Below are positions 26,149 to 33,647 of a stretch of 64,000 nt of DNA, in pieces. The stretch covers positions 22,187 through 86,186 of the forward strand of contig DASSBR010000053.1 in assembly GCA_035698525.1 (NCBI GenBank), written 5' to 3'. The position numbers and the translations under genes are program-made. Position 1 is the stretch's first letter. Each line of letters starts with the position of its first letter. The DNA is from Gammaproteobacteria bacterium. GTDB lineage: Bacteria; Pseudomonadota; Gammaproteobacteria; Natronospirales; DASSBR01. Below the pieces are notes generated by a model, which was not told the origin of the DNA, ran no database searches, and worked only from the letters and a program-made list of their open reading frames with translations.

Positions 26149-27526
26149 AGAACACGATCTGGCCACGGCGCACCGTGAGCAGCAGCGTGCCCTGGTACTG
26201 CGACAAGGCGTTGCGGAACTGCGCCAGGTTCTTGATCGGGTGGCGGTTGACCGCGACGATCACGTCACCGGGACGCAGTCCGGCTTCGGCGGCCTCGCCA
26301 TCCGGCTTGACGGACACGACCAGCGCACCATGCACCTCGCCGAACAACGGCGAGTCCTTGGTGATGTCACTGAAACCCGCGCCCAGCTCTTCGTTCTTCG
26401 TTCCGCCGGTCGCGCTGTTGGCGCTGTTCTGATTGCCTAGCGTTGCCTTGACTTCCATCGTCTTGCCGTTGCGCACAAGCTTGATATTGACGGACGTGCC
26501 GGGTCGCTTCAGGCCGATGACATTGCTCAACTCGTCGGGCCCGCTCACTTCATCGCCATTCACGGCGACAATCGCATCACCCTGCTTGATGCCCGCCTTG
26601 TCGGCAGCCGAGCCCTGCACGACGTGCGTGACCAGTGCGCCCTGGTCGCTCGGCAGCCCCAGCGCCTTCGCGATCTCCGGCGTCAACTTCTGGATATTCA
26701 CCCCAAGCATGCCGTGCTCCACCTTGCCGTACTTGATGAGCTGGTGCATGACGTTCTTGGCCATATTGATCGGAATCGCGAAGCCGATGCCGATATTGCC
26801 GCCGGTGCGTGAAAAAATCGCCGAGTTGATGCCGACGAGTTCGCCGCGCAGGTTCACCAGCGCGCCGCCCGAGTTGCCGTGGTTGATCGCGGCGTCGGTC
26901 TGAATGTAATTCTGATAGGGTGAGCTTTGGGCGGTGTGTTCTTCGATCTGCCGGCCCAGGCCGCTGACGATGCCGTACGTCGCCGTGTGCGACAGCCCGA
27001 ACGGGTTGCCGATCGCGACCACGTAATCGCCGACGCGAAGTTGCGCGGAATCGCCGAGGGTAATGGCATGAAGACCGTCAGCCTTGATCTGCACCACCGC
27101 GAGGTCGGTCTGTTTATCCTTGCCGACAACCTTCGCCTCGAACTTGCGGCCGTCGTTCAGGATCACCGTAATCTTGTCAGCGTTTTCGATGACGTGGTTG
27201 TTGGTCAGGATGTAGCCCTTGTCGGCATCAACGATGACACCCGACCCGAGCGCCTCAAAATGACGGATGCGCGGCGGCATCTGTCCGCCAAAGAAGTGGC
27301 GGAAGAAGGGATCGTTCATGAGCGGCCCCATCGGTTGCTGCCGCACCTTCACATGCCCTCGCGTCGAAATATTGACGACGCTCTGGGTGACCTGGCTGAT
27401 CATCGGCGCCAGGCTCGGCATCGCTTTCGTGCCAAGCATCGGAGGCGCCTCGGCTTGCGCCGACAGGGGGATCAGGAGGGCGAAGGCGGCGGCCGCGAAT
27501 ACGGCCGTGAACGCTGGTTTCTTCAT
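26132..27526 (-). CDS. degP: periplasmic serine endoprotease, DegP/DegQ (HtrA) family, two PDZ domains
   Basis: Signal peptide MKKPAFTAVFAAAAFALLIPLSAQA. Catalytic blocks TNNHV, DLAVV, GNSGGALV. Two PDZ-like segments. ATG 27526 is chosen over the track start at 27574. Confidence 0.9.
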   Translation of the reverse strand: MKKPAFTAVFAAAAFALLIPLSAQAEAPPMLGTKAMPSLAPMISQVTQSVVNISTRGHVKVRQQPMGPLMNDPFFRHFFGGQMPPRIRHFEALGSGVIVDADKGYILTNNHVIENADKITVILNDGRKFEAKVVGKDKQTDLAVVQIKADGLHAITLGDSAQLRVGDYVVAIGNPFGLSHTATYGIVSGLGRQIEEHTAQSSPYQNYIQTDAAINHGNSGGALVNLRGELVGINSAIFSRTGGNIGIGFAIPINMAKNVMHQLIKYGKVEHGMLGVNIQKLTPEIAKALGLPSDQGALVTHVVQGSAADKAGIKQGDAIVAVNGDEVSGPDELSNVIGLKRPGTSVNIKLVRNGKTMEVKATLGNQNSANSATGGTKNEELGAGFSDITKDSPLFGEVHGALVVSVKPDGEAAEAGLRPGDVIVAVNRHPIKNLAQFRNALSQYQGTLLLTVRRGQIVFFTTIR

Positions 27527-27553
27527 GTTGTGGCCTCGTTTGGCAGAGGTGGG

Positions 27554-27611
27554 AAAAGAAAAACCGCCACGCATCGCCCTCGGGCTTCAGCCCGAAGGGA
27601 TGACGTGGCGG
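27554..27611 (-). terminator. rho-independent terminator downstream of hsp20
   Basis: On the minus strand: CCGCCACG...(inner 9-bp stem CCCTTCGGGC/GCCCGAGGG)...CGTGGCGG followed by TTTTTCTTTT. Confidence 0.7.
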
Positions 27612-27657
27612 TCATGTTCAGGGACAGCCGCCGAAAGCGGAAGTTCCCGATTGCGGA

Positions 27658-28107
27658 CTAATGCTCAACATTGATCTTCCGCGGCTGCGTCTTCGCATGC
27701 TTCGGAATCGTGATCTCCAGTACGCCATTGTTGCCGCGAGCCGAAATGCCTTCCGAGTCGGCCGTATCCGGCAGCGTGAAGCGGCGATAGAACTGGCCGC
27801 TGATGCGCTCGACACGGTGATAACCGTCCGACTCGCGCGTCTCTTCCGAGCGCCGTTCGCCGCGGATCGTCAGCATCCCGTTCTCCATCGTCACTTCGAT
27901 GTCCTTGGGATCGACCCCGGGCAAGTCCGCCTTCAGGATGAAGCTGTCCTGCTGCTCCCTGATGTCCACCGCCGGAACCCAGTCGGTCGTGACGACGCTG
28001 TCGTCGTCGCTGTAGTTGTAGCGGCCGAGCCGATGATCGAACATCCGGTTGATTTCGGAATGGAGCTGATTCATCAGGCTCCACGGTTCGTAAGTCGTGA
28101 GTGCCAT
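27658..28107 (-). CDS. ibpA: small heat-shock protein (Hsp20/IbpA family)
   Basis: ATG 28107 follows AGGAGG. Alpha-crystallin core WVPAVDIREQQDSFILKADLPGVDPKDIEVTMENGMLTIRGER...GVLEITIPK. Confidence 0.9.
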   Translation of the reverse strand: MALTTYEPWSLMNQLHSEINRMFDHRLGRYNYSDDDSVVTTDWVPAVDIREQQDSFILKADLPGVDPKDIEVTMENGMLTIRGERRSEETRESDGYHRVERISGQFYRRFTLPDTADSEGISARGNNGVLEITIPKHAKTQPRKINVEH

Positions 28108-28146
28108 GGTAAAACCTCCTTTCGAGTGAATGGGACTATGGCCGGT

Positions 28147-28174
28147 ATCTATGGGCGCCGGCATGGGTTTCAAG
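28147..28174 (-). promoter_or_regulatory. candidate sigma-32 (heat-shock) promoter for hsp20
   Basis: The minus strand reads CTTGAAA-cccatgccggcg-CCCATAGAT, compared with the consensus CTTGAAA-N(11-16)-CCCCATnT. It lies about 40 nt upstream of the hsp20 ATG. Confidence 0.5.
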
Positions 28175-28206
28175 TCCTTTTTGCGGTTTTGCAGGGCTTG
28201 TCGGGG

Positions 28207-28222
28207 CCACTAGATATAGTGT
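28207..28222. promoter_or_regulatory. NrdR-box-like 16-bp palindrome
   Basis: CCACTAGATATAGTGT against the remembered NrdR-box consensus acaCwAtATaTwGtgt. It sits about 90 nt upstream of the nrdJ -35, and no convincing tandem partner was found. Confidence 0.35.
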
Positions 28223-28311
28223 TTATTTATGTGCGGCGAATTTGCGGCCGCGAGGGAGCATTATTAAATAAGTATTTGAAATACAAGTAAAAAATAGTGT
28301 GGCTAAAGCGC

Positions 28312-28340
28312 TTGACAGCATCTCCCGTCAGGCCTATGCT
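28312..28340 (+). promoter_or_regulatory. candidate sigma-70 promoter for nrdJa
   Basis: TTGACA (28312-28317), a 17-nt spacer, then TATGCT (28335-28340). This predicts a 5' UTR of about 100 nt before ATG 28450. Confidence 0.5.
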
Positions 28341-28449
28341 TTGGGCTCAGCCTACAAGATGTTGTGTCTTTATATCCACAACTTCTCCACAGCTTGTACA
28401 CGATATTTACGACCGAAAGAAGTCAAAAATCCGGAGGGCGGGTCATAGT

Positions 28450-31400
28450 ATGAAGACAGCAATGAAGCGCGAACCCACAACAGTCATGGAAATCCCGGTG
28501 CAGGAAGCATCCGCAGACATCTGGGACAAGAAATACCGCCTGAAGACCAAGGATGGCACGATTCTGGACGAGACGGTTGACGATACGTACAAGCGCGTCG
28601 CCCGCGCGCTGGCCGAAGTCGAAGAACCGGCCAATCAAGAGGAGTGGTACGAGAAATTCCTGTGGGCGCTGCGCCATGGCGCCATTCCGGCCGGTCGCAT
28701 CACGTCCAACGCCGGCGCGTGGGAGCACAAGCCGGCGACCTCGACGATCAACTGCACCGTTTCCGGCACGATCCGCGACTCGATGAACGACATCCTCGGC
28801 AAGGTGCACGAGGCGGGGCTCACGCTCAAGGCCGGCTGCGGCATCGGCTACTGCTTCTCGACGCTGCGCCCGCGTGGCGCCTACGTCGCCGGCGCCGGCG
28901 CCTACACCTCCGGCCCGCTGTCGTTCATGGATATCTACGACAAGATGTGCTTCACCGTCTCGTCGGCCGGCGGCCGCCGCGGCGCGCAGATGGGCACCTT
29001 CGACGTCGGCCACCCGGACGTGCTCGACTTCATCCGCGCCAAGCGGGAGTCCGGTCGCCTGCGCCAGTTCAACCTGTCGCTGCTGGTCACCGACGAATTC
29101 ATTCAGGCGGTCAAGAACGACGCCACCTGGCCGCTGGCATTCCCGCTCAACCAGATAGAAGTGGACGCCGAGGAAATCGACATCAACGACCCGGCCAAGG
29201 TCGTCTGGCGCGAGTGGGAAACCACCGAAGGCTATGTCACCAACGAAGCGGGCCTGGTCGCCTGCAAGATATACAAGACCCTCCCGGCGCGCCGCGTCTG
29301 GGACATGATCATGACCTCGACTTATGACTTTGCCGAGCCCGGCTTCGTGCTGATCGACAAAGTCAACGAGATGAACAACAACTGGTTCTGCGAAACCATC
29401 CGTGCGACGAACCCGTGCGTGACGGCCGATACCCGGCTGCACACACAGTACGGGCTGGTCCCGATCGGCGAGCTGTATCAGTCGGGTGTGCCGCTGTCCG
29501 TGACGGTGGACCGTCGCGCGTTGGGTGATGATGATCGCGGCGTCGAAATTCGCGACGCCAAACCTGCTTTTATGACGGCACGCGAAGCCGACGTATACAA
29601 GGTCGTCACCGAAGCCGGTTATGAAATAAAGGCCACCGAATGGCACGATTTCTACACTCAGCGCGGGAAGATCAAGCTGTCAGAGTTGCAGGCCGGCGAC
29701 GAATTGCTGGTGCAGTCCGGCAAAGGGCAGTTCGGCAAGGAGGGCAGTAATCAGTTGGGCACGCTGCTCGGGCTCATTACGGGCGATGGTCACTTCACCA
29801 ACCGTGGCAAGGATCAGGAAGCGGTCATCGTTAACTTCTGGAACGAAGAACGTACGCTCGCAAACGGAATAGCAGGCTATATCAACAGCTTGATCGCCAG
29901 CGTGGCACAAAGCGCCAGAAGCTACGAGGTCGCACCCGTAGCAGTACCGGAGCGGAACCATCTCTTTATCCGCTCGGTGTTGTTGGCCCGCGTACTTGAG
30001 CATTACGGCTTCACCCGGCAGAGCAAGTTAAGGGTGCCGGAAGTGGTCTGGCGCGGCTCCGAAGCATGCGTAAAGGGCTACCTGCGCGGCCTGTTCCAGG
30101 CCGACGGTACGGTCAATGTCTCGTCCAACGGCCAGAGTTGCTCCGTTCGTTTGGCTTCAAGCTATCCGAGTCTGCTCAAGGACGTTCAGATGTTGCTCGC
30201 CAACTTCGGCGTGTACTGCCGCATCCACCAGCGGCGCCGCGCCGGCAAGCGCATACTTCCTGATGGTCGTGGTGGCCAGCGCGAATATGCCTGCCGGGCG
30301 GATCATGAACTGATCATTGATGGACAGTCGCGCGGCGTATTTATGCGCGAGATCGGCTTCCTGATGGATTATAAGAACGAGAAATACGCGCAATGGGTGG
30401 CCGACAAGGCGCTGCGCAAGACGCAACGGTTCGCGACGAAGATCAAGGAAATAGTGTTTGTTGGTCGCGAGGCGGTTTTCGACACCACGCAGCCCGATAA
30501 CAACACGGTTATCTTCAACGGCCTGGTGACGGGGCAATGCGGCGAACAGCCGCTCCCGCCGTACGGCTCCTGCCTGCTAGGCTCCGTTAACCTCACCAAG
30601 TTCGTGCTCGACCCGTTCACCGATCAGGCGCGTTTCGACTGGGAAGAATTCCGCGACGTCGTCAAGACGTTCACGCGGATGCTCGACAACGTCGTCGAGA
30701 TCAACGGCCTGCCGCTGGAGCAGCAGCGCAACGAAATCTTCAGCAAGCGCCGCCACGGCATGGGCTTCCTGGGGCTAGGCTCAACGCTGACGATGCTGCG
30801 TATGAAATACGGCGCGCCGGAGTCGGTCGACTTTACCGACCAGGTCTCGCGCGAACTGGCCGTCGCCGGCTGGGAAGAAGCGCTGGAACTGGCGAAGGAA
30901 AAAGGCCCCGCGCCGATCCTCGTCGAGAACTTCACCGTCACCGAGGAAATGCTGCGCAAGCGCCCGGAAATGGCGGCGGACGGCTACAAGGTCGGCGACA
31001 AGGTTCCGGGGCGCATCCTGCACTCGAAATACAGCCGCTACATGCAACAGGTCGCGACTGTCGCGCCCGAACTGGTGGCGGAACTGGCCGAAGTGGGCGC
31101 GCGCTTCACGCACCACAGCTCGATCGCCCCGACCGGCACGATCTCGCTGTCGCTCGCGAACAACGCCGCCAATGGCATCGAGCCGAGCTTCGCGCACCAC
31201 TACTTCCGCAACGTGATCCGCGAAGGCAAGAAGTCGAAGGAAAAGATCGACGTCTTCTCGTTCGAGCTGCTGGCCTACCGCGCGCTCATCAACCCGAACG
31301 CGCTGCCCGAGTCCGAGAACGAGCACGAAAAGCTGCCCGACTACTTCGTCACGGCGGAACACATCACGCCGAAGGAACACGTCGACATTCAGGCCGCGGC

Positions 31401-31719
31401 ACAGAAGTGGATCGACTCGTCGATCTCCAAGACCGCCAACGTCCCGACCGACTACCCGTACGAGGACTTCAAGGACATCTACCTGTATGCCTACGACAGC
31501 GGCCTGAAAGGCTGCACCACGTTCCGCTTCAACCCGGAAGCGTTCCAGGGCGTGCTCGTCAAGGGCTCCGACCTCCAGAACACCACATACAAGTTCACGC
31601 TGGAGGACGGCACCGTAGTTGAAGCCAAGGGTGACGAAGAAATCGAATACGACGGCGAAATGCACACCGCCGCCAACTTATTCGACGCTCTTAAAGAGGG
31701 CTACTACGGCAAATGGTGA
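28450..31719 (+). CDS. nrdJ: class II (adenosylcobalamin-dependent) ribonucleotide reductase, NrdJa part, interrupted by an in-frame intein
   Basis: ATG 28450 lies downstream of the promoter and of GGAGGG. RNR blocks include NCTVSG and the finger-loop motif ATNP/CGEQPLPPYGSC, which is split by 374 inserted codons. Without the insert the product is about 715 aa. Confidence 0.9.
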   Translation: MKTAMKREPTTVMEIPVQEASADIWDKKYRLKTKDGTILDETVDDTYKRVARALAEVEEPANQEEWYEKFLWALRHGAIPAGRITSNAGAWEHKPATSTINCTVSGTIRDSMNDILGKVHEAGLTLKAGCGIGYCFSTLRPRGAYVAGAGAYTSGPLSFMDIYDKMCFTVSSAGGRRGAQMGTFDVGHPDVLDFIRAKRESGRLRQFNLSLLVTDEFIQAVKNDATWPLAFPLNQIEVDAEEIDINDPAKVVWREWETTEGYVTNEAGLVACKIYKTLPARRVWDMIMTSTYDFAEPGFVLIDKVNEMNNNWFCETIRATNPCVTADTRLHTQYGLVPIGELYQSGVPLSVTVDRRALGDDDRGVEIRDAKPAFMTAREADVYKVVTEAGYEIKATEWHDFYTQRGKIKLSELQAGDELLVQSGKGQFGKEGSNQLGTLLGLITGDGHFTNRGKDQEAVIVNFWNEERTLANGIAGYINSLIASVAQSARSYEVAPVAVPERNHLFIRSVLLARVLEHYGFTRQSKLRVPEVVWRGSEACVKGYLRGLFQADGTVNVSSNGQSCSVRLASSYPSLLKDVQMLLANFGVYCRIHQRRRAGKRILPDGRGGQREYACRADHELIIDGQSRGVFMREIGFLMDYKNEKYAQWVADKALRKTQRFATKIKEIVFVGREAVFDTTQPDNNTVIFNGLVTGQCGEQPLPPYGSCLLGSVNLTKFVLDPFTDQARFDWEEFRDVVKTFTRMLDNVVEINGLPLEQQRNEIFSKRRHGMGFLGLGSTLTMLRMKYGAPESVDFTDQVSRELAVAGWEEALELAKEKGPAPILVENFTVTEEMLRKRPEMAADGYKVGDKVPGRILHSKYSRYMQQVATVAPELVAELAEVGARFTHHSSIAPTGTISLSLANNAANGIEPSFAHHYFRNVIREGKKSKEKIDVFSFELLAYRALINPNALPESENEHEKLPDYFVTAEHITPKEHVDIQAAAQKWIDSSISKTANVPTDYPYEDFKDIYLYAYDSGLKGCTTFRFNPEAFQGVLVKGSDLQNTTYKFTLEDGTVVEAKGDEEIEYDGEMHTAANLFDALKEGYYGKW
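29416..30537 (+). mobile_element. intein with LAGLIDADG homing-endonuclease domain inside nrdJa
   Basis: Block A CVTADTRLHT at the N-junction. Block B KATEWHDFYT. LAGLIDADG motifs LLGLITGDGHF (29764-29796) and YLRGLFQADGTV (30079-30114). Block F/G reads EAVFDTTQPDNNTVIFNGLVTGQ followed by the +1 Cys of CGEQPL. Confidence 0.85.
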
Positions 31720-31729
31720 ATTCTCATCC

Positions 31730-31748
31730 CCTCTCCCTCAGGGAGAGG
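31730..31748. repeat. REP-like GC-rich hairpin in the nrdJa-nrdJb spacer
   Basis: CCTCTCCC-tca-GGGAGAGG (8-bp stem), followed by ACTAGGGTGAGG. It resembles a repetitive extragenic palindrome motif common in proteobacteria. Confidence 0.4.
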
Positions 31749-31784
31749 ACTAGGGTGAGGAGATAAATTTCCAAGGACTCAGTT

Positions 31785-32519
31785 ATGACCATAAAGATCG
31801 ACAAAAAAATCGTAAGCTACAACGTAGCCAAACCCGCCGAAGGCGAAGCCGAGAAATCAACAATAGAATCGGCAGTAAACAAAAAAGCCGCCGCCCAAGC
31901 GGCGGAGAAAAAGCCAAAGGCCGAAGTCATCCGCATGCACGAAAAGCTCGAGCGGCCGGAAAGGCTGCTCGGCTCAACGTACAAGGTCAAAACGCCGATC
32001 TCCGAACACGCGATGTACGTCACCATCAACGACATCCTGCTGAACGAAGGCACGGAATACGAAGTTCGCCGCCCGTTCGAGATCTTCATCAACTCGAAAA
32101 ACCTCGACCACTACCAGTGGATCGTCGCCCTGACGCGAATCATCTCCGCAGTTTTCCGCAAGGGCGGCGACGTCACCTTCCTGGTAGAAGAGCTGAAAGC
32201 GGTATTCGACCCGCGCGGCGGCTACTGGAAGCCGGGCGGCAAGTTCATGCCGTCACTGATCGCCGAACTCGGCGAAGTGATCGAAAAGCACCTCGTCACC
32301 ATCGGCATGATGCACAAGGAAGAACTCGACGAGCACCAGAAAAAGCTGATCGAAGAAAAGCGCGCCGAATTTGAAGCGCAGACAAAGCAGCAGGACGCGT
32401 TTGCGGAGAATGCGTTTCCGGCTGGGGCGCAGCTTTGCGCCAAATGCAACACGGCGGCTGTTGTGATGATGGATGGGTGTATGACTTGTCTTAGTTGCGG
32501 CGATAGCAAGTGCGGGTAG
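31785..32519 (+). CDS. nrdJ: class II ribonucleotide reductase C-terminal subunit (NrdJb, TSCPD-type domain)
   Basis: AAGGA RBS. The core is YVTINDILLNEG...RPFEIFINSKN...WIVALTRIISAVFRKGG. The C-terminal Cys tail is CAKCNTAAVVMMDGCMTCLSCGDSKCG, as at the end of unsplit NrdJ. Confidence 0.8.
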   Translation: MTIKIDKKIVSYNVAKPAEGEAEKSTIESAVNKKAAAQAAEKKPKAEVIRMHEKLERPERLLGSTYKVKTPISEHAMYVTINDILLNEGTEYEVRRPFEIFINSKNLDHYQWIVALTRIISAVFRKGGDVTFLVEELKAVFDPRGGYWKPGGKFMPSLIAELGEVIEKHLVTIGMMHKEELDEHQKKLIEEKRAEFEAQTKQQDAFAENAFPAGAQLCAKCNTAAVVMMDGCMTCLSCGDSKCG

Positions 32520-32592
32520 GCAAATTCGGCGCCATCTCCGCTAGAGTTATATTTATAATTGACCGCTGAACAGCATCAGGGGAAAGCACGTA

Positions 32593-33369
32593 ATGCAAGC
32601 ACTGGGTGACCGATGGAGGCAATTTGGTGCGATTGTTTTGGATCCGTGGACGGCATGCCTTATGTTGGCTGTAGCTGCGCTCTTTTACATGTCACTGCAC
32701 CAAGCAAACGCAGTTGGTTCAACGCTTCTGTTTGTCCTAATTACGCTAACATCTGCGGTACTCGGTGGGCGCATTACAAAGCAATGGGTAGAAGCAACAG
32801 AGGGTGGAGTGGTAGTAGCTCGGGGGCGATCTGCCGTACGCAGCCTGAAACTTCTGCTCAGAACAATATCTTCGTTGGAGTCACGCATACGTGCGTTTAG
32901 GGATGCGGAAGGTGAAATAGAGCAACATCCGCTAATGGTTCGACGGAATTACGAGGAAGCCATTCAAGCATGCAACCTACTCCAAGAGGAAACCGTGAGT
33001 TCGATAGAGAACTGGACGGACATAGTTCCGGAGGCAGACATCAAGACTCAGATTGGCTTAATCAGTGAACTCAAGAAGAGCATCGCGGACAAGGAGATCG
33101 AGCTTAGCAATTTAGATGATCAACTAAGGGAGACGAAAGGTCAGTCTGAAGCCGAGCGGACTCAGCTTAAACAGCAGATAAGGGATAAGGCGGCGCAGAT
33201 TGATAAACTGCAACATGAAGTAATGGAACGGAAAGTTAATGTAGGGGGCTTCGGTCTCGCAGATGTTGGAAGGCTTGAAGGTCCTACGGGCGATGTGCCG
33301 TTGGCTGCGTCGGATGTGAAGTCGCGAATCGCAAAGCTTATAGAGGCGATGAACTCAAAGACGGAGTAG
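32593..33369 (+). CDS. hypothetical membrane-anchored coiled-coil protein (island gene 1)
   Basis: 258 aa. Two N-terminal hydrophobic helices (ACLMLAVAALFYMSL and STLLFVLITLTSAVLGG). A long heptad-like, charged segment follows (KKSIADKEIELSNLDDQLRETKGQSEAERTQLKQQIRDKAAQIDKLQHEV). Low GC. GGGGAAAG precedes the ATG. Confidence 0.55.
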   Translation: MQALGDRWRQFGAIVLDPWTACLMLAVAALFYMSLHQANAVGSTLLFVLITLTSAVLGGRITKQWVEATEGGVVVARGRSAVRSLKLLLRTISSLESRIRAFRDAEGEIEQHPLMVRRNYEEAIQACNLLQEETVSSIENWTDIVPEADIKTQIGLISELKKSIADKEIELSNLDDQLRETKGQSEAERTQLKQQIRDKAAQIDKLQHEVMERKVNVGGFGLADVGRLEGPTGDVPLAASDVKSRIAKLIEAMNSKTE

Positions 33370-33407
33370 AAGGTGTTCGAGCTTGGGGCAGATCTTCTGA
33401 ACCGGGA

Positions 33408-33647
33408 GTGTTAAGAATCAGAGAGCAGGTAAATGAAAATTGTAATGCGGCGCGACGTATGCAAATCGAATACGTACACCTTGATGCGGATGAAGCTTGG
33501 AACGCGGATGCTCAAAGGTGGGAGCTTGCCACTGTGTGCGACAATGCCACCTGCGAAATGTGCGGCGGAGAGACGTCAATCGAGGAGTTCAAGATTGGCG
33601 GTGACAGATCAAAAGCGATGCCAAGACAACGACTGGAGAACCGATGA
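33408..33647 (+). CDS. small hypothetical acidic protein with C-x4-C-x2-C motif (island gene 2; start uncertain)
   Basis: The stop overlaps the ATG of the next gene (ATGA at 33644-33647). Starts are possible at GTG 33408 or ATG 33459. A competing frame exists at 33433-33666. Confidence 0.35.
   Translation: MLRIREQVNENCNAARRMQIEYVHLDADEAWNADAQRWELATVCDNATCEMCGGETSIEEFKIGGDRSKAMPRQRLENR

What the first reader, a model, noticed from the sequence alone, without database searches (positions are those of the whole stretch)
29416..30537. Full-size LAGLIDADG intein inserted immediately before the catalytic-loop cysteine of class II RNR
The conserved NrdJ finger-loop motif (T/S)NPCGEQPL is split. The sequence reads ...IRATNP, then a 374-aa insert starting CVTADTRL, then CGEQPLPPYGSC... 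The insert has intein blocks A and B (TEWH), two LAGLIDADG motifs and an F/G-like end. Precise excision restores ATNPCGEQPL. By homology the +1 Cys used for splicing is the cysteine that carries the thiyl radical in RNRs. Enzyme activity should therefore depend strictly on splicing. Spot counts suggest slightly lower GC in the intein than in the extein (32/60 and 35/60 on the lines at 29581 and 29761).
Basis: partly seen in the sequence, partly recalled or inferred. Interest (0 to 1): 0.65.

Follow-up and report, generated by a model that had tools for sequence, protein, structure and literature searches.

The report
Homing intein at NrdJ radical cysteine
The B12-dependent ribonucleotide reductase gene of this uncultured gammaproteobacterium is interrupted, directly before its catalytic radical cysteine, by an intact-looking self-splicing mobile element (an intein with a homing endonuclease); this is the commonest and long-known intein site in these enzymes, so it is an ordinary new example.

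Summary
Bases 29416-30537 encode a 374-aa in-frame insert (CVTADTRL...NGLVTGQ) between ...IRATNP and CGEQPLPP... of nrdJa.

- **Clean excision.** Removing it in silico gives a 711-aa protein that matches the NrdJ model in one stretch. It aligns without gaps to a 95%-identical, syntenic, intein-free orthologue.
- **Catalytic site.** The +1 Cys aligns with Cys322 of Thermotoga maritima NrdJ, which is the thiyl-radical cysteine.
- **Intein features.** The insert has Cys1, block B T74/H77, two LAGLIDADG motifs (D124, D230) and block F D356. A confident AlphaFold model best matches PI-PfuI, the VMA inteins and I-DmoI.
- **Selection and spread.** It is under strong purifying selection, is scattered on the extein tree and is absent from five same-genus genomes.
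- **Competing intein.** One close relative carries a different, His-Asn-ended intein at the same site.

More than 2000 protein clusters hold allelic copies, and the literature calls this the most frequent RNR intein site.

The one atypical feature is the Gly-Gln C-terminus. It is conserved in this clade (111 of 121 copies) and has a published functional precedent in the Chilo iridescent virus RNR intein.

Splicing and endonuclease activity are inferred, not shown.

Verdict: real, a new member of a known kind, low interest.

The parts
28450..31719 (+). nrdJa precursor CDS, the class II RNR catalytic chain including the intein. The start is ATG 28450 (MKTAMK..., as in orthologue P0121, with GGAGG at 28433-28437) or ATG 28462 (the 1085-aa gene call P0001).
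   Evidence: TIGR02504 NrdJ_Z scores 555 bits in two stretches for the precursor. It scores 575 bits in one stretch (2-604 of 606) after in-silico excision.
28450..29415 (+). N-extein, ending ...NNWFCETIRATNP.
29416..30537 (+). Intein, 374 aa, from Cys1 to Gly373-Gln374.
29416..29439 (+). Intein block A (CVTADTRL). Cys1 is the N-terminal nucleophile.
   Evidence: C1, V2, T3, D5, T6, R7 and L8 are invariant in the 15-sequence alignment. TIGR01445 covers residues 1-81.
29617..29658 (+). Intein block B (GYEIKATEWHDFYT). T74 is at 29635-29637 and H77 at 29644-29646.
   Evidence: T74 and H77 are invariant.
29731..30429 (+). LAGLIDADG homing-endonuclease domain, about aa 106-338. Motif 1 is at 29755-29796 (D124) and motif 2 at 30073-30114 (D230).
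   Evidence: PF14528 scores 85.7 bits. G123-D124-G125 and D230-G231 are invariant. The fold matches I-DmoI and PI-PfuI. For this domain pN is 0.141 against pS 0.706 versus L003.
30475..30537 (+). Intein blocks F and G (VFDTTQPDNNTVIFNGLVTGQ). It holds the F:4-type Asp356, Asn362 where most relatives have His, and the atypical Gly373-Gln374 terminus.
30538..30540 (+). The +1 Cys codon. It is the C-extein nucleophile for splicing and aligns with the thiyl-radical Cys322 of T. maritima NrdJ.
   Evidence: HMMER alignment to 1xje_A...INSTNPCGEIGLSDYEAC.... PMC2677866.
30538..31719 (+). C-extein (CGEQPLPPYGSC...YYGKW) plus the stop codon.
31785..32519 (+). nrdJb, the separate C-terminal chain of the split class II RNR. 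It has a TSCPD domain and a Cys-rich tail.
   Evidence: PF12637 TSCPD and NF006417 positions 574-759. The same gene order is seen in L002 and L004.
28207..28340 (+). Likely control region of nrdJab. It holds an NrdR-box-like palindrome (28207-28222) and a sigma-70-like promoter (28312-28340).
   Evidence: a single match in the window; 0.02 expected by chance. nrdR is present in the genome. These are consensus matches only.

Best explanation
Bases 29416-30537 encode a bifunctional class-1-type intein inside nrdJa.

**Shown**
- The element is a HINT splicing domain (aa 1 to about 105, plus about 339-374) with a two-motif LAGLIDADG homing endonuclease nested in it.
- It is inserted between Pro and the Cys of the NPCGE finger-loop motif.
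- That Cys aligns with the thiyl-radical cysteine of a solved class II RNR.
- Excision restores a collinear NrdJa.

**Inferred mechanism**
1. After translation of the 1085-1089-aa precursor, Cys1 performs an N-S acyl shift.
2. The +1 Cys, the future radical cysteine, attacks the thioester to form the branched intermediate.
3. The C-terminal Gln374 cyclises, to a glutarimide instead of the usual Asn-derived succinimide, and releases the 374-aa intein.
4. An S-N shift yields the 711-aa NrdJa with an intact ...ATNPCGEQPL... loop.

**Consequences, inferred**
- The 374 residues sit at the tip of the finger loop, so the unspliced precursor should be catalytically dead. This is the only RNR found in the 72%-complete assembly, so splicing is probably needed for dNTP supply.
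- The free intein is probably an active, or recently active, site-specific endonuclease. It would cut intein-less nrdJ alleles at the ...ACNAAYCCN|TGCGGNGAR... site and spread by homing.
For: **Position and excision**
- Exact in-frame insert.
- The spliced CDS aligns to the syntenic intein-free orthologue L002 over 2148 of 2148 nt with no gap, at 91.4% nt and 95% aa identity.
- 110 of 111 intein-free homologues read RATNPCGEQPL.
- NrdJ_Z becomes one stretch of 575 bits after excision.

**Catalytic Cys**
- The alignment to T. maritima NrdJ (1xje) puts the +1 Cys on Cys322 and the +11 Cys on Cys333.
- Dassa et al. [quoted passage not shown]

**Intein identity**
- TIGR01445 and PF14528 hit above cut-off.
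- C1, T74, H77, D124, D230 and D356 are invariant.
- The AF2 model has pLDDT 84 and pTM 0.86.
- Foldseek top hits are PI-PfuI (2e-15), the Tli and Pho VMA inteins, PI-SceI, I-DmoI and mini-inteins. The top viral hit is Brochothrix phage A9 Gp128, TMq 0.82.

**Function retained**
- For the intein against L003, pN is 0.124 and pS is 0.736. The endonuclease part shows pN 0.141 and pS 0.706.
- The ORF is open and has no frameshift.

**Mobility**
- 0 of 5 same-genus genomes carry it. 11 of 55 same-order genomes carry a 65-73% identical allele.
- On the extein tree the 7 carriers need at least 5 changes.
- The window, an empty allele and an allele with a different intein form one trio with 100% support.
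- GC3 is 0.72 in the intein against 0.87 in the exteins.

**Gln terminus is workable**
- 111 of 121 close alleles end in Gly-Gln.
- The CIV RNR intein splices more efficiently with its native Gln than with Asn (PMC4031507).

**Sole RNR**
- There is one PF02867 hit and no NrdD hit in the assembly.
Against: - No experiment shows splicing or DNA cleavage for this or any close allele.
- The two residues that usually assist C-terminal cleavage are missing. G:6 is Gly. The block F His is Asn362 here and is variable in the clade.
- The last four residues of the model have pLDDT below 50.
- PF14890 falls just below its gathering score (33.9 against 35.8), and no intein C-terminal model hits.
- The nearest intein relative in the databases is only 81% identical, so no recent donor is seen.
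- The patchy distribution could partly reflect precise losses rather than gains.
- The genome is a 72%-complete MAG, so a second RNR cannot be excluded.
Confidence: 0.87

Rival explanations
1. The intein is splicing-competent but its endonuclease no longer works. The element would be vertically inherited or domesticated, for example as a conditional, redox- or stress-sensitive switch on RNR maturation, and would no longer be mobile.
For: - No close donor is known; the best intein match is 81% identical.
- Gln termini are slow in some inteins, such as Pab and Mma Pol II (PMC4031507). That would suit a regulatory delay.
- Cysteines flank the junction at -8, 1, +1 and +11.
- Purifying selection on the endonuclease part could reflect structural rather than catalytic constraint.
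Against: - Both LAGLIDADG acidic residues (D124, D230) and the surrounding motifs are invariant.
- The distribution on the extein tree is as scattered as random labels, and three states occur within one tight clade.
- The intein is absent from five same-genus genomes.
- GC3 drops sharply at the intein borders.
Confidence: 0.1
2. The intein is decayed and does not splice. The lack of terminal Asn, penultimate His and block F His would make nrdJa a dead gene, with dNTP synthesis resting on an RNR in the unassembled 28% of the genome.
For: - Gly-Gln replaces His-Asn, and Asn362 replaces the usual block F His.
- No C-terminal intein HMM hits.
- The MAG is only 72% complete.
Against: - The same Gly-Gln end is conserved in 111 of 121 alleles across many genera. 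It also occurs in 30 of 134 clusters at 50% identity.
- The 1085-codon frame is intact.
- The exteins show dN/dS of 0.05-0.11 against L002, and the intein has pN far below pS.
- The exteins have the highest GC3 of all long ORFs in the window, a sign of a well-expressed gene.
- A Gln-ended RNR intein is experimentally active.
Confidence: 0.03
3. The insert is a permanent, non-excised accessory domain of this NrdJ lineage, or an assembly chimera of the MAG.
For: None beyond the absence of direct protein data.
Against: - The insert splits the finger loop that carries the radical Cys.
- Empty-site orthologues are the rule.
- The splicing residues are invariant.
- The same precise junctions recur in more than 100 independent assemblies, so this is not an artefact of one assembly.
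Confidence: 0.01

Closest known systems
Contiguous 'RIR1' inteins inserted directly N-terminal to the thiyl-radical cysteine of class I and II RNR catalytic subunits (InBase and Pietrokovski catalogues; Dassa et al. 2009, PMC2677866), including the Pyrococcus RNR inteins (PI-PfuI structure 1dq3)
   Same: - Same host family and same insertion point.
- Same architecture: a HINT domain plus a LAGLIDADG endonuclease, with Cys1 and Cys+1.
- PI-PfuI is the best PDB match by both sequence and fold.
- The intein aligns to positions 946-1239 of the intein-containing Pyrococcus-type NrdJ profile NF006207, and the C-extein starts at profile position 1240.
- 104 of 134 homologous intein clusters sit at NP|C and 10 at the class I NL|C site.
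   Different: - The host is a bacterial, split NrdJa/NrdJb enzyme.
- Identity to PI-PfuI is only about 17%.
- The C-terminus is Gly-Gln, not His-Asn.
Chilo iridescent virus RNR (CIV RIR1) intein and other Gln-ended inteins (Pyrococcus abyssi and Methanoculleus marisnigri Pol II); Amitai, Dassa and Pietrokovski 2004; Mills et al. 2004; reviewed in PMC4031507
   Same: - A C-terminal Gln takes the place of Asn.
- The CIV case is also an RNR intein and splices well with its native Gln.
- The presumed mechanism is class 1 chemistry with Gln cyclisation.
   Different: - The host is a class II bacterial enzyme rather than a viral class I RNR or an archaeal polymerase.
- Here the Gln is coupled to a penultimate Gly and is conserved across a large clade: 111 of 121 close alleles, and 48 of 134 clusters at 50% identity end in Gln.
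- I did not compare sequences with the CIV intein.
Close allelic copies already in public databases, mostly named 'LAGLIDADG family homing endonuclease' (for example NrdJ of Ectothiorhodospira shaposhnikovii, Nitrococcus mobilis, Thiohalophilus thiocyanatoxydans, Halomonas maura and Methylotuvimicrobium sp.)
   Same: They share the same site and the same 372-379-aa intein, at 67-81% identity. Nearly all have the same ...FNGLVTGQ|CGEQPLP junction.
   Different: This copy is a new sequence; its nearest relative is 81% identical. It sits in a genus whose five other sampled species lack the intein.

Membership tests
Intein (class 1 type, HINT splicing domain) | N-terminal nucleophile (Cys or Ser at position 1, block A) | tested here: met
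   Cys1 is present and CVTADTRL is invariant in relatives. TIGR01445 intein_Nterm scores 41.6 bits against a cut-off of 24.5.
Intein (class 1 type, HINT splicing domain) | Block B Thr-x-x-His | tested here: met
   T74-E-W-H77 is present, and both T74 and H77 are invariant.
Intein (class 1 type, HINT splicing domain) | +1 nucleophile (Cys, Ser or Thr) as the first C-extein residue | tested here: met
   Cys is encoded at 30538-30540.
Intein (class 1 type, HINT splicing domain) | Block F acidic residue (F:4 Asp) | tested here: met
   D356 in VFDTT is invariant.
Intein (class 1 type, HINT splicing domain) | Canonical block G His-Asn terminus. This is typical but not obligatory, because functional inteins with other G:6 residues and with Gln or Asp at G:7 are accepted members (PMC4031507). 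| tested here: not met
   The intein ends in Gly373-Gln374. No C-terminal intein HMM hits.
Intein (class 1 type, HINT splicing domain) | HINT fold with adjacent N- and C-terminal strands | tested here: met
   The AF2 model has pLDDT 84. Foldseek hits full inteins at E down to 2e-15 and mini-inteins (Mtu RecA, Ssp DnaE, Npu DnaE) at probability 1.00. The last 4 residues are of low confidence.
Intein (class 1 type, HINT splicing domain) | Host homologues without the insert are collinear across the site | tested here: met
   111 of 116 nearest extein homologues are empty. The alignment to L002 is ungapped over 2148 nt.
Intein (class 1 type, HINT splicing domain) | Demonstrated protein splicing | not testable with these tools
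   This needs expression followed by SDS-PAGE or mass spectrometry.
Gln-ended inteins (CIV RNR / Pab Pol II type) | C-terminal Gln in place of Asn, followed by a +1 nucleophile | tested here: met
   Gln374 is followed by Cys. The feature is conserved in 111 GQ plus 2 AQ of 121 close alleles.
LAGLIDADG (dodecapeptide) homing endonuclease, two-motif monomer | Two LAGLIDADG motifs, each ending in an acidic residue | tested here: met
   The motifs are LLGLITGD124G and LRGLFQAD230G, and both Asp residues are invariant. PF14528 scores 85.7 bits against a cut-off of 22.5.
LAGLIDADG (dodecapeptide) homing endonuclease, two-motif monomer | Alpha-beta-beta-alpha-beta-beta-alpha fold pair | tested here: met
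   I-DmoI chains match with TMt 0.64-0.72. PI-PfuI, PI-SceI, I-SceI and I-OnuI variants also hit.
LAGLIDADG (dodecapeptide) homing endonuclease, two-motif monomer | Site-specific cleavage of the intein-less allele and homing | not testable with these tools
   Support is indirect only: a patchy distribution and purifying selection on the domain.
Class II (adenosylcobalamin) RNR, split NrdJa/NrdJb | Match to the curated NrdJ equivalog model above cut-off | tested here: met
   TIGR02504 scores 575 bits against a cut-off of 399.95, in a single stretch, for the spliced protein.
Class II (adenosylcobalamin) RNR, split NrdJa/NrdJb | Finger-loop N-P-C-G-E with the radical Cys, plus the nearby redox Cys | tested here: met
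   The motif is present only after excision. It aligns to T. maritima N320-P-C322-G-E324 and C333. The residue roles come from established knowledge of the T. maritima and L. leichmannii enzymes.
Class II (adenosylcobalamin) RNR, split NrdJa/NrdJb | Separate NrdJb chain with a TSCPD domain and a C-terminal Cys cluster | tested here: met
   ORF 31785-32519 hits PF12637 and ends ...CAKCNTAAVVMMDGCMTCLSCGDSKCG.
RIR1 inteins at the thiyl-radical Cys site | Insertion point directly N-terminal to the radical Cys, with homology to other inteins at that point | tested here: met
   See and 57/58: 104 NP|C and 10 NL|C of 134 clusters. The NF006207 profile junction falls at 1239/1240. PMC2677866.

The most novel reading that the evidence does not exclude
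The Gly-Gln-ended NrdJ inteins would be a mechanistically distinct subclass rather than sporadic variants.

- They lack the penultimate His. In this copy the block F His is missing too.
- They would resolve the branched intermediate by Gln cyclisation, assisted by other residues.
- Their splicing would be slow or condition-dependent, for example gated by the redox state of Cys1, Cys+1 and Cys+11.
- The intein would then act as a post-translational gate on the cell's only ribonucleotide reductase.
Probability: 0.1. Interest if true: 0.55.

Novelty: new member of a known kind. Interest (0 to 1): 0.2.

Why it matters
The finding mainly matters for annotation.

- **Naming.** The gene is a functional nrdJa whose product must be spliced. 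Public pipelines often name whole precursors of this type 'LAGLIDADG family homing endonuclease', which hides an essential enzyme.
- **Homing cycle.** The locus is a tidy natural illustration of the cycle. Three close, syntenic orthologues show the empty site, this Gly-Gln intein and an unrelated-looking His-Asn intein at the same codon.
- **Gln termini.** The allelic family offers many natural Gln-ended inteins: 48 of 134 clusters at 50% identity. This could be useful to people who study C-terminal cleavage chemistry or who look for new splicing tools.

None of this changes what is known about how inteins or RNRs work.

Tried and rejected
- **Rfam.** A scan of 27000-33500 at E <= 0.1 found no RNA family, for example no cobalamin riboswitch.
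- **PDB by sequence.** The intein gave only a marginal hit, PI-PfuI at E = 0.006. A fold comparison was needed.
- **Literature.** A search for 'Cys322' of T. maritima NrdJ found no open paper. The role of that residue rests on established knowledge plus PMC2677866.
- **Co-conversion.** I tested for co-conversion of the extein flanks during homing. Window-specific substitutions are mildly enriched near the junction: 5 within ±21 nt against 1.8 expected (P about 0.04), and 16 within ±90 nt against 7.9 expected. The window reads QPL where both nearest relatives read QAL. The test is post hoc and only suggestive.
- **Alternative splice register.** Ending the intein at Asn368 (FN|G) was rejected. 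Gly is not a nucleophile, and six extra residues would remain in the finger loop.
- **Other inteins.** None were found in the assembly.
Full report
**1. The observation**

The long ORF 28297..31719 (+) reads ...NNWFCETIRATNP, then CVTADTRL...VIFNGLVTGQ, then CGEQPLPPYGSC.... The insert runs from TGC 29416-29418 to CAA 30535-30537. The real start is probably ATG 28450 (MKTAMK..., as in the nearest orthologue, with GGAGG 12 nt upstream) or ATG 28462, the public gene call of 1085 aa.

Overall GC is 58.4% in the insert and 62.2% in the flanks. At third codon positions the step is sharp: 72.2% against 86.6%, Fisher p = 1.4e-8. It coincides with the insert borders.

**2. The host gene**

The flanks are a class II (adenosylcobalamin) ribonucleotide reductase.
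- TIGR02504 NrdJ_Z scores 555 bits in two stretches on the precursor.
- After in-silico excision it scores 575 bits in one stretch that covers profile positions 2-604 of 606.

The downstream ORF 31785..32519 has a TSCPD domain and a Cys-rich tail. It is NrdJb, so the enzyme is of the split NrdJa/NrdJb type.

HMMER aligns the spliced protein to T. maritima NrdJ (1xje). IRATNPCGEQPLPPYGSC lies on INSTNPCGEIGLSDYEAC. Counting along that alignment puts the +1 Cys on Cys322 and the next Cys on Cys333. By established knowledge of that enzyme these are the thiyl-radical cysteine and one of the redox pair. Dassa et al. [quoted passage not shown]

**3. The insert is an intein with a homing endonuclease**

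Curated models hit above their cut-offs: TIGR01445 intein_Nterm at 41.6 against 24.5 bits, and PF14528 LAGLIDADG_3 at 85.7 against 22.5 bits. PF14890 falls just below (33.9 against 35.8), and no C-terminal intein model hits.

An alignment of this copy with 14 relatives at 65-81% identity shows these residues invariant:
- Cys1 and block A;
- T74 and H77 (block B);
- G123-D124-G125 and D230-G231 (the two LAGLIDADG motifs);
- D356 (the block F Asp).

AlphaFold2 on that alignment gives pLDDT 84 and pTM 0.86, with beta-rich ends and a helical, mixed centre. Foldseek against the PDB returns these hits:
- PI-PfuI, a Pyrococcus RNR intein, at 2e-15;
- the Tli and Pho VMA inteins, PI-SceI and the PolI intein endonuclease;
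- I-DmoI, with target TM about 0.7, for the middle domain;
- the Mtu RecA, Ssp DnaE and Npu DnaE mini-inteins for the ends.

Against viral models the best hit is Brochothrix phage A9 Gp128 (TMq 0.82), followed by several viral RNRs.

**4. Empty sites and excision**

Of the 116 nearest extein homologues, 111 have no insert here. Of these, 110 read RATNPCGEQPL.

The nearest, P0121, is 95% identical. It lies in a syntenic locus (bioD, degP-like protease, hsp20, nrdJa, nrdJb) of a related MAG (L002). The window's CDS with bases 29416-30537 removed aligns to it over 2148 of 2148 nt without a gap, at 91.4% identity.

**5. Is it alive?**

The 1085-codon frame is open. Against the closest intein-bearing locus (L003, 81% aa identity) the intein shows pN 0.124 with pS 0.736, which is saturated. 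The endonuclease part alone shows pN 0.141 and pS 0.706. Both the splicing and nuclease parts are therefore under purifying selection. The exteins show dN/dS of 0.05-0.11 against L002.

The assembly (2.16 Mb, 72% complete) holds no other PF02867 gene, no NrdD and no other intein. On present evidence the cell depends on this gene. The dependence of activity on splicing is an inference from the position of the insert in the finger loop.

**6. Mobility**

None of five other species of the same genus has the intein. 11 of 55 genomes of the same order have a 65-73% identical allele, and four more have a roughly 31-36% identical intein.

On a tree of the exteins, the seven carriers among the 120 nearest sequences need at least five changes on well-supported branches. 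That is no fewer than shuffled labels need.

The window forms a trio with 100% support. Its partners are the empty allele P0121 and P0122. P0122 carries a different 377-aa LAGLIDADG intein at the very same codon. That intein is 31% identical and ends His-Asn. All three states of the homing cycle, including competition between two intein lineages, are thus seen among close syntenic orthologues.

Window-specific substitutions are mildly enriched around the junction, and the window reads QPL where both partners read QAL. This would fit co-conversion of the flanks, but the test is post hoc.

**7. How common it is**

The word-indexed search found at least 2093 clusters at 90% identity. The best 120 are all NrdJ proteins with the same junctions, from Ectothiorhodospira, Nitrococcus, Halomonas, Thiohalophilus, Methylotuvimicrobium and many MAGs. 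Many are named only 'LAGLIDADG family homing endonuclease'.

The exhaustive search of clusters at 50% identity gave 3530 hits at E <= 0.001 and 337 at E <= 1e-30. Of the 134 best with a resolvable C-junction, 104 sit at NP|C (class II) and 10 at NL|C (class I).

The intein also aligns to positions 946-1239 of the Pyrococcus-type intein-containing NrdJ profile NF006207. The C-extein begins at profile position 1240. The element is therefore one allele of the classic RIR1 intein at this site.

Earlier notes of this scan on other genomes reached the same verdict.

**8. The one atypical feature**

The intein ends Gly-Gln instead of His-Asn. Asn362 stands where most relatives have the block F His; that position varies among H, N, R and K.

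The ending is not an accident of this copy.
- Among 121 close alleles, 111 end GQ, 6 GN, 2 AQ and 2 AN.
- Among 134 clusters at 50% identity, 48 end in Gln and only 43 have a penultimate His.

Published work shows that Gln can replace Asn. The Pab and Mma Pol II inteins splice slowly with it, whereas the Chilo iridescent virus RNR intein splices better with its native Gln than with Asn. Inteins without the penultimate His can also be fully active (PMC4031507). The most likely mechanism is therefore ordinary class 1 chemistry with Gln cyclisation in step 3. This is inferred, not shown.

**9. Verdict**

The element is a new sequence, at most 81% identical to anything public, of a well-known kind at its best-known site. 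Interest is low. The only mildly notable points are the three-state polymorphism among close relatives and the breadth of Gln-ended alleles.

Noticed in passing
L004:3967-5097 (JGI metagenome contig; nrdJa at L004:3001-6279): A syntenic orthologue with about 90% extein identity carries a different 377-aa LAGLIDADG intein at exactly the same codon. It reads CVTADTWV...ANGLHAHN|CGEQAL and is 31% identical to the window's intein. With the empty allele in L002, three states occur within one clade that has 100% support.
   Followed up: partly
window 30520-30537: The intein ends Gly-Gln, and this is conserved in 111 of 121 close alleles. Among homologous intein clusters at 50% identity, 48 of 134 end in Gln and only 43 of 134 keep the penultimate His. 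Switching between Gln (CAR) and Asn (AAY) needs two base changes, through Lys or His.
   Followed up: partly
window 30499-30501 (Asn362 of the intein): The block F position that is His in most relatives (PDHNT) is Asn here (PDNNT). It varies among H, N, R and K in the clade. Neither of the usual His helpers of C-terminal cleavage is therefore conserved.
   Followed up: no
window 29325-29505 and 30538-30630 (extein flanks of the intein): Substitutions specific to the window, relative to its two nearest orthologues, are mildly enriched near the junction: 16 within ±90 nt against 7.9 expected. The window reads CGEQPL where both relatives read CGEQAL. This may be a co-conversion tract from homing, but the test is post hoc.
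   Followed up: partly
proteins P0006, P0013, P0058, P0093 and other 1320-1600-aa homologues: Many NrdJa homologues carry two or three inteins. A second recurrent site is AGLTLKAG|C(VAPDT...). In the window that site is uninterrupted (AGLTLKAGCGIGYCF).
   Followed up: no
public names of P0005, P0007, P0010, P0018, P0028 and others: Whole intein-containing NrdJ precursors are named only 'LAGLIDADG family homing endonuclease' in NCBI and UniRef records. This hides an essential RNR gene.
   Followed up: no
window 28207-28222 and 28312-28340: An NrdR-box-like palindrome, CCACTAGATATAGTGT, is the only match in the 64 kb (0.02 expected by chance). A sigma-70-like promoter (TTGACA-17-TATGCT) also lies upstream of nrdJa. 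An nrdR gene is present elsewhere in the genome (C14).
   Followed up: partly
L003:6298-7442: In the locus with the closest intein allele, two extra genes lie between nrdJa and nrdJb: a 284-aa protein with faint HTH hits and a 71-aa ORF. In the window and in L002 and L004, nrdJa and nrdJb are adjacent.
   Followed up: no
window 28462-31716: The NrdJa exteins have the highest third-position GC (0.87) of all ORFs of at least 250 codons in the window. The intein (0.72) and nrdJb (0.73) are average.
   Followed up: partly
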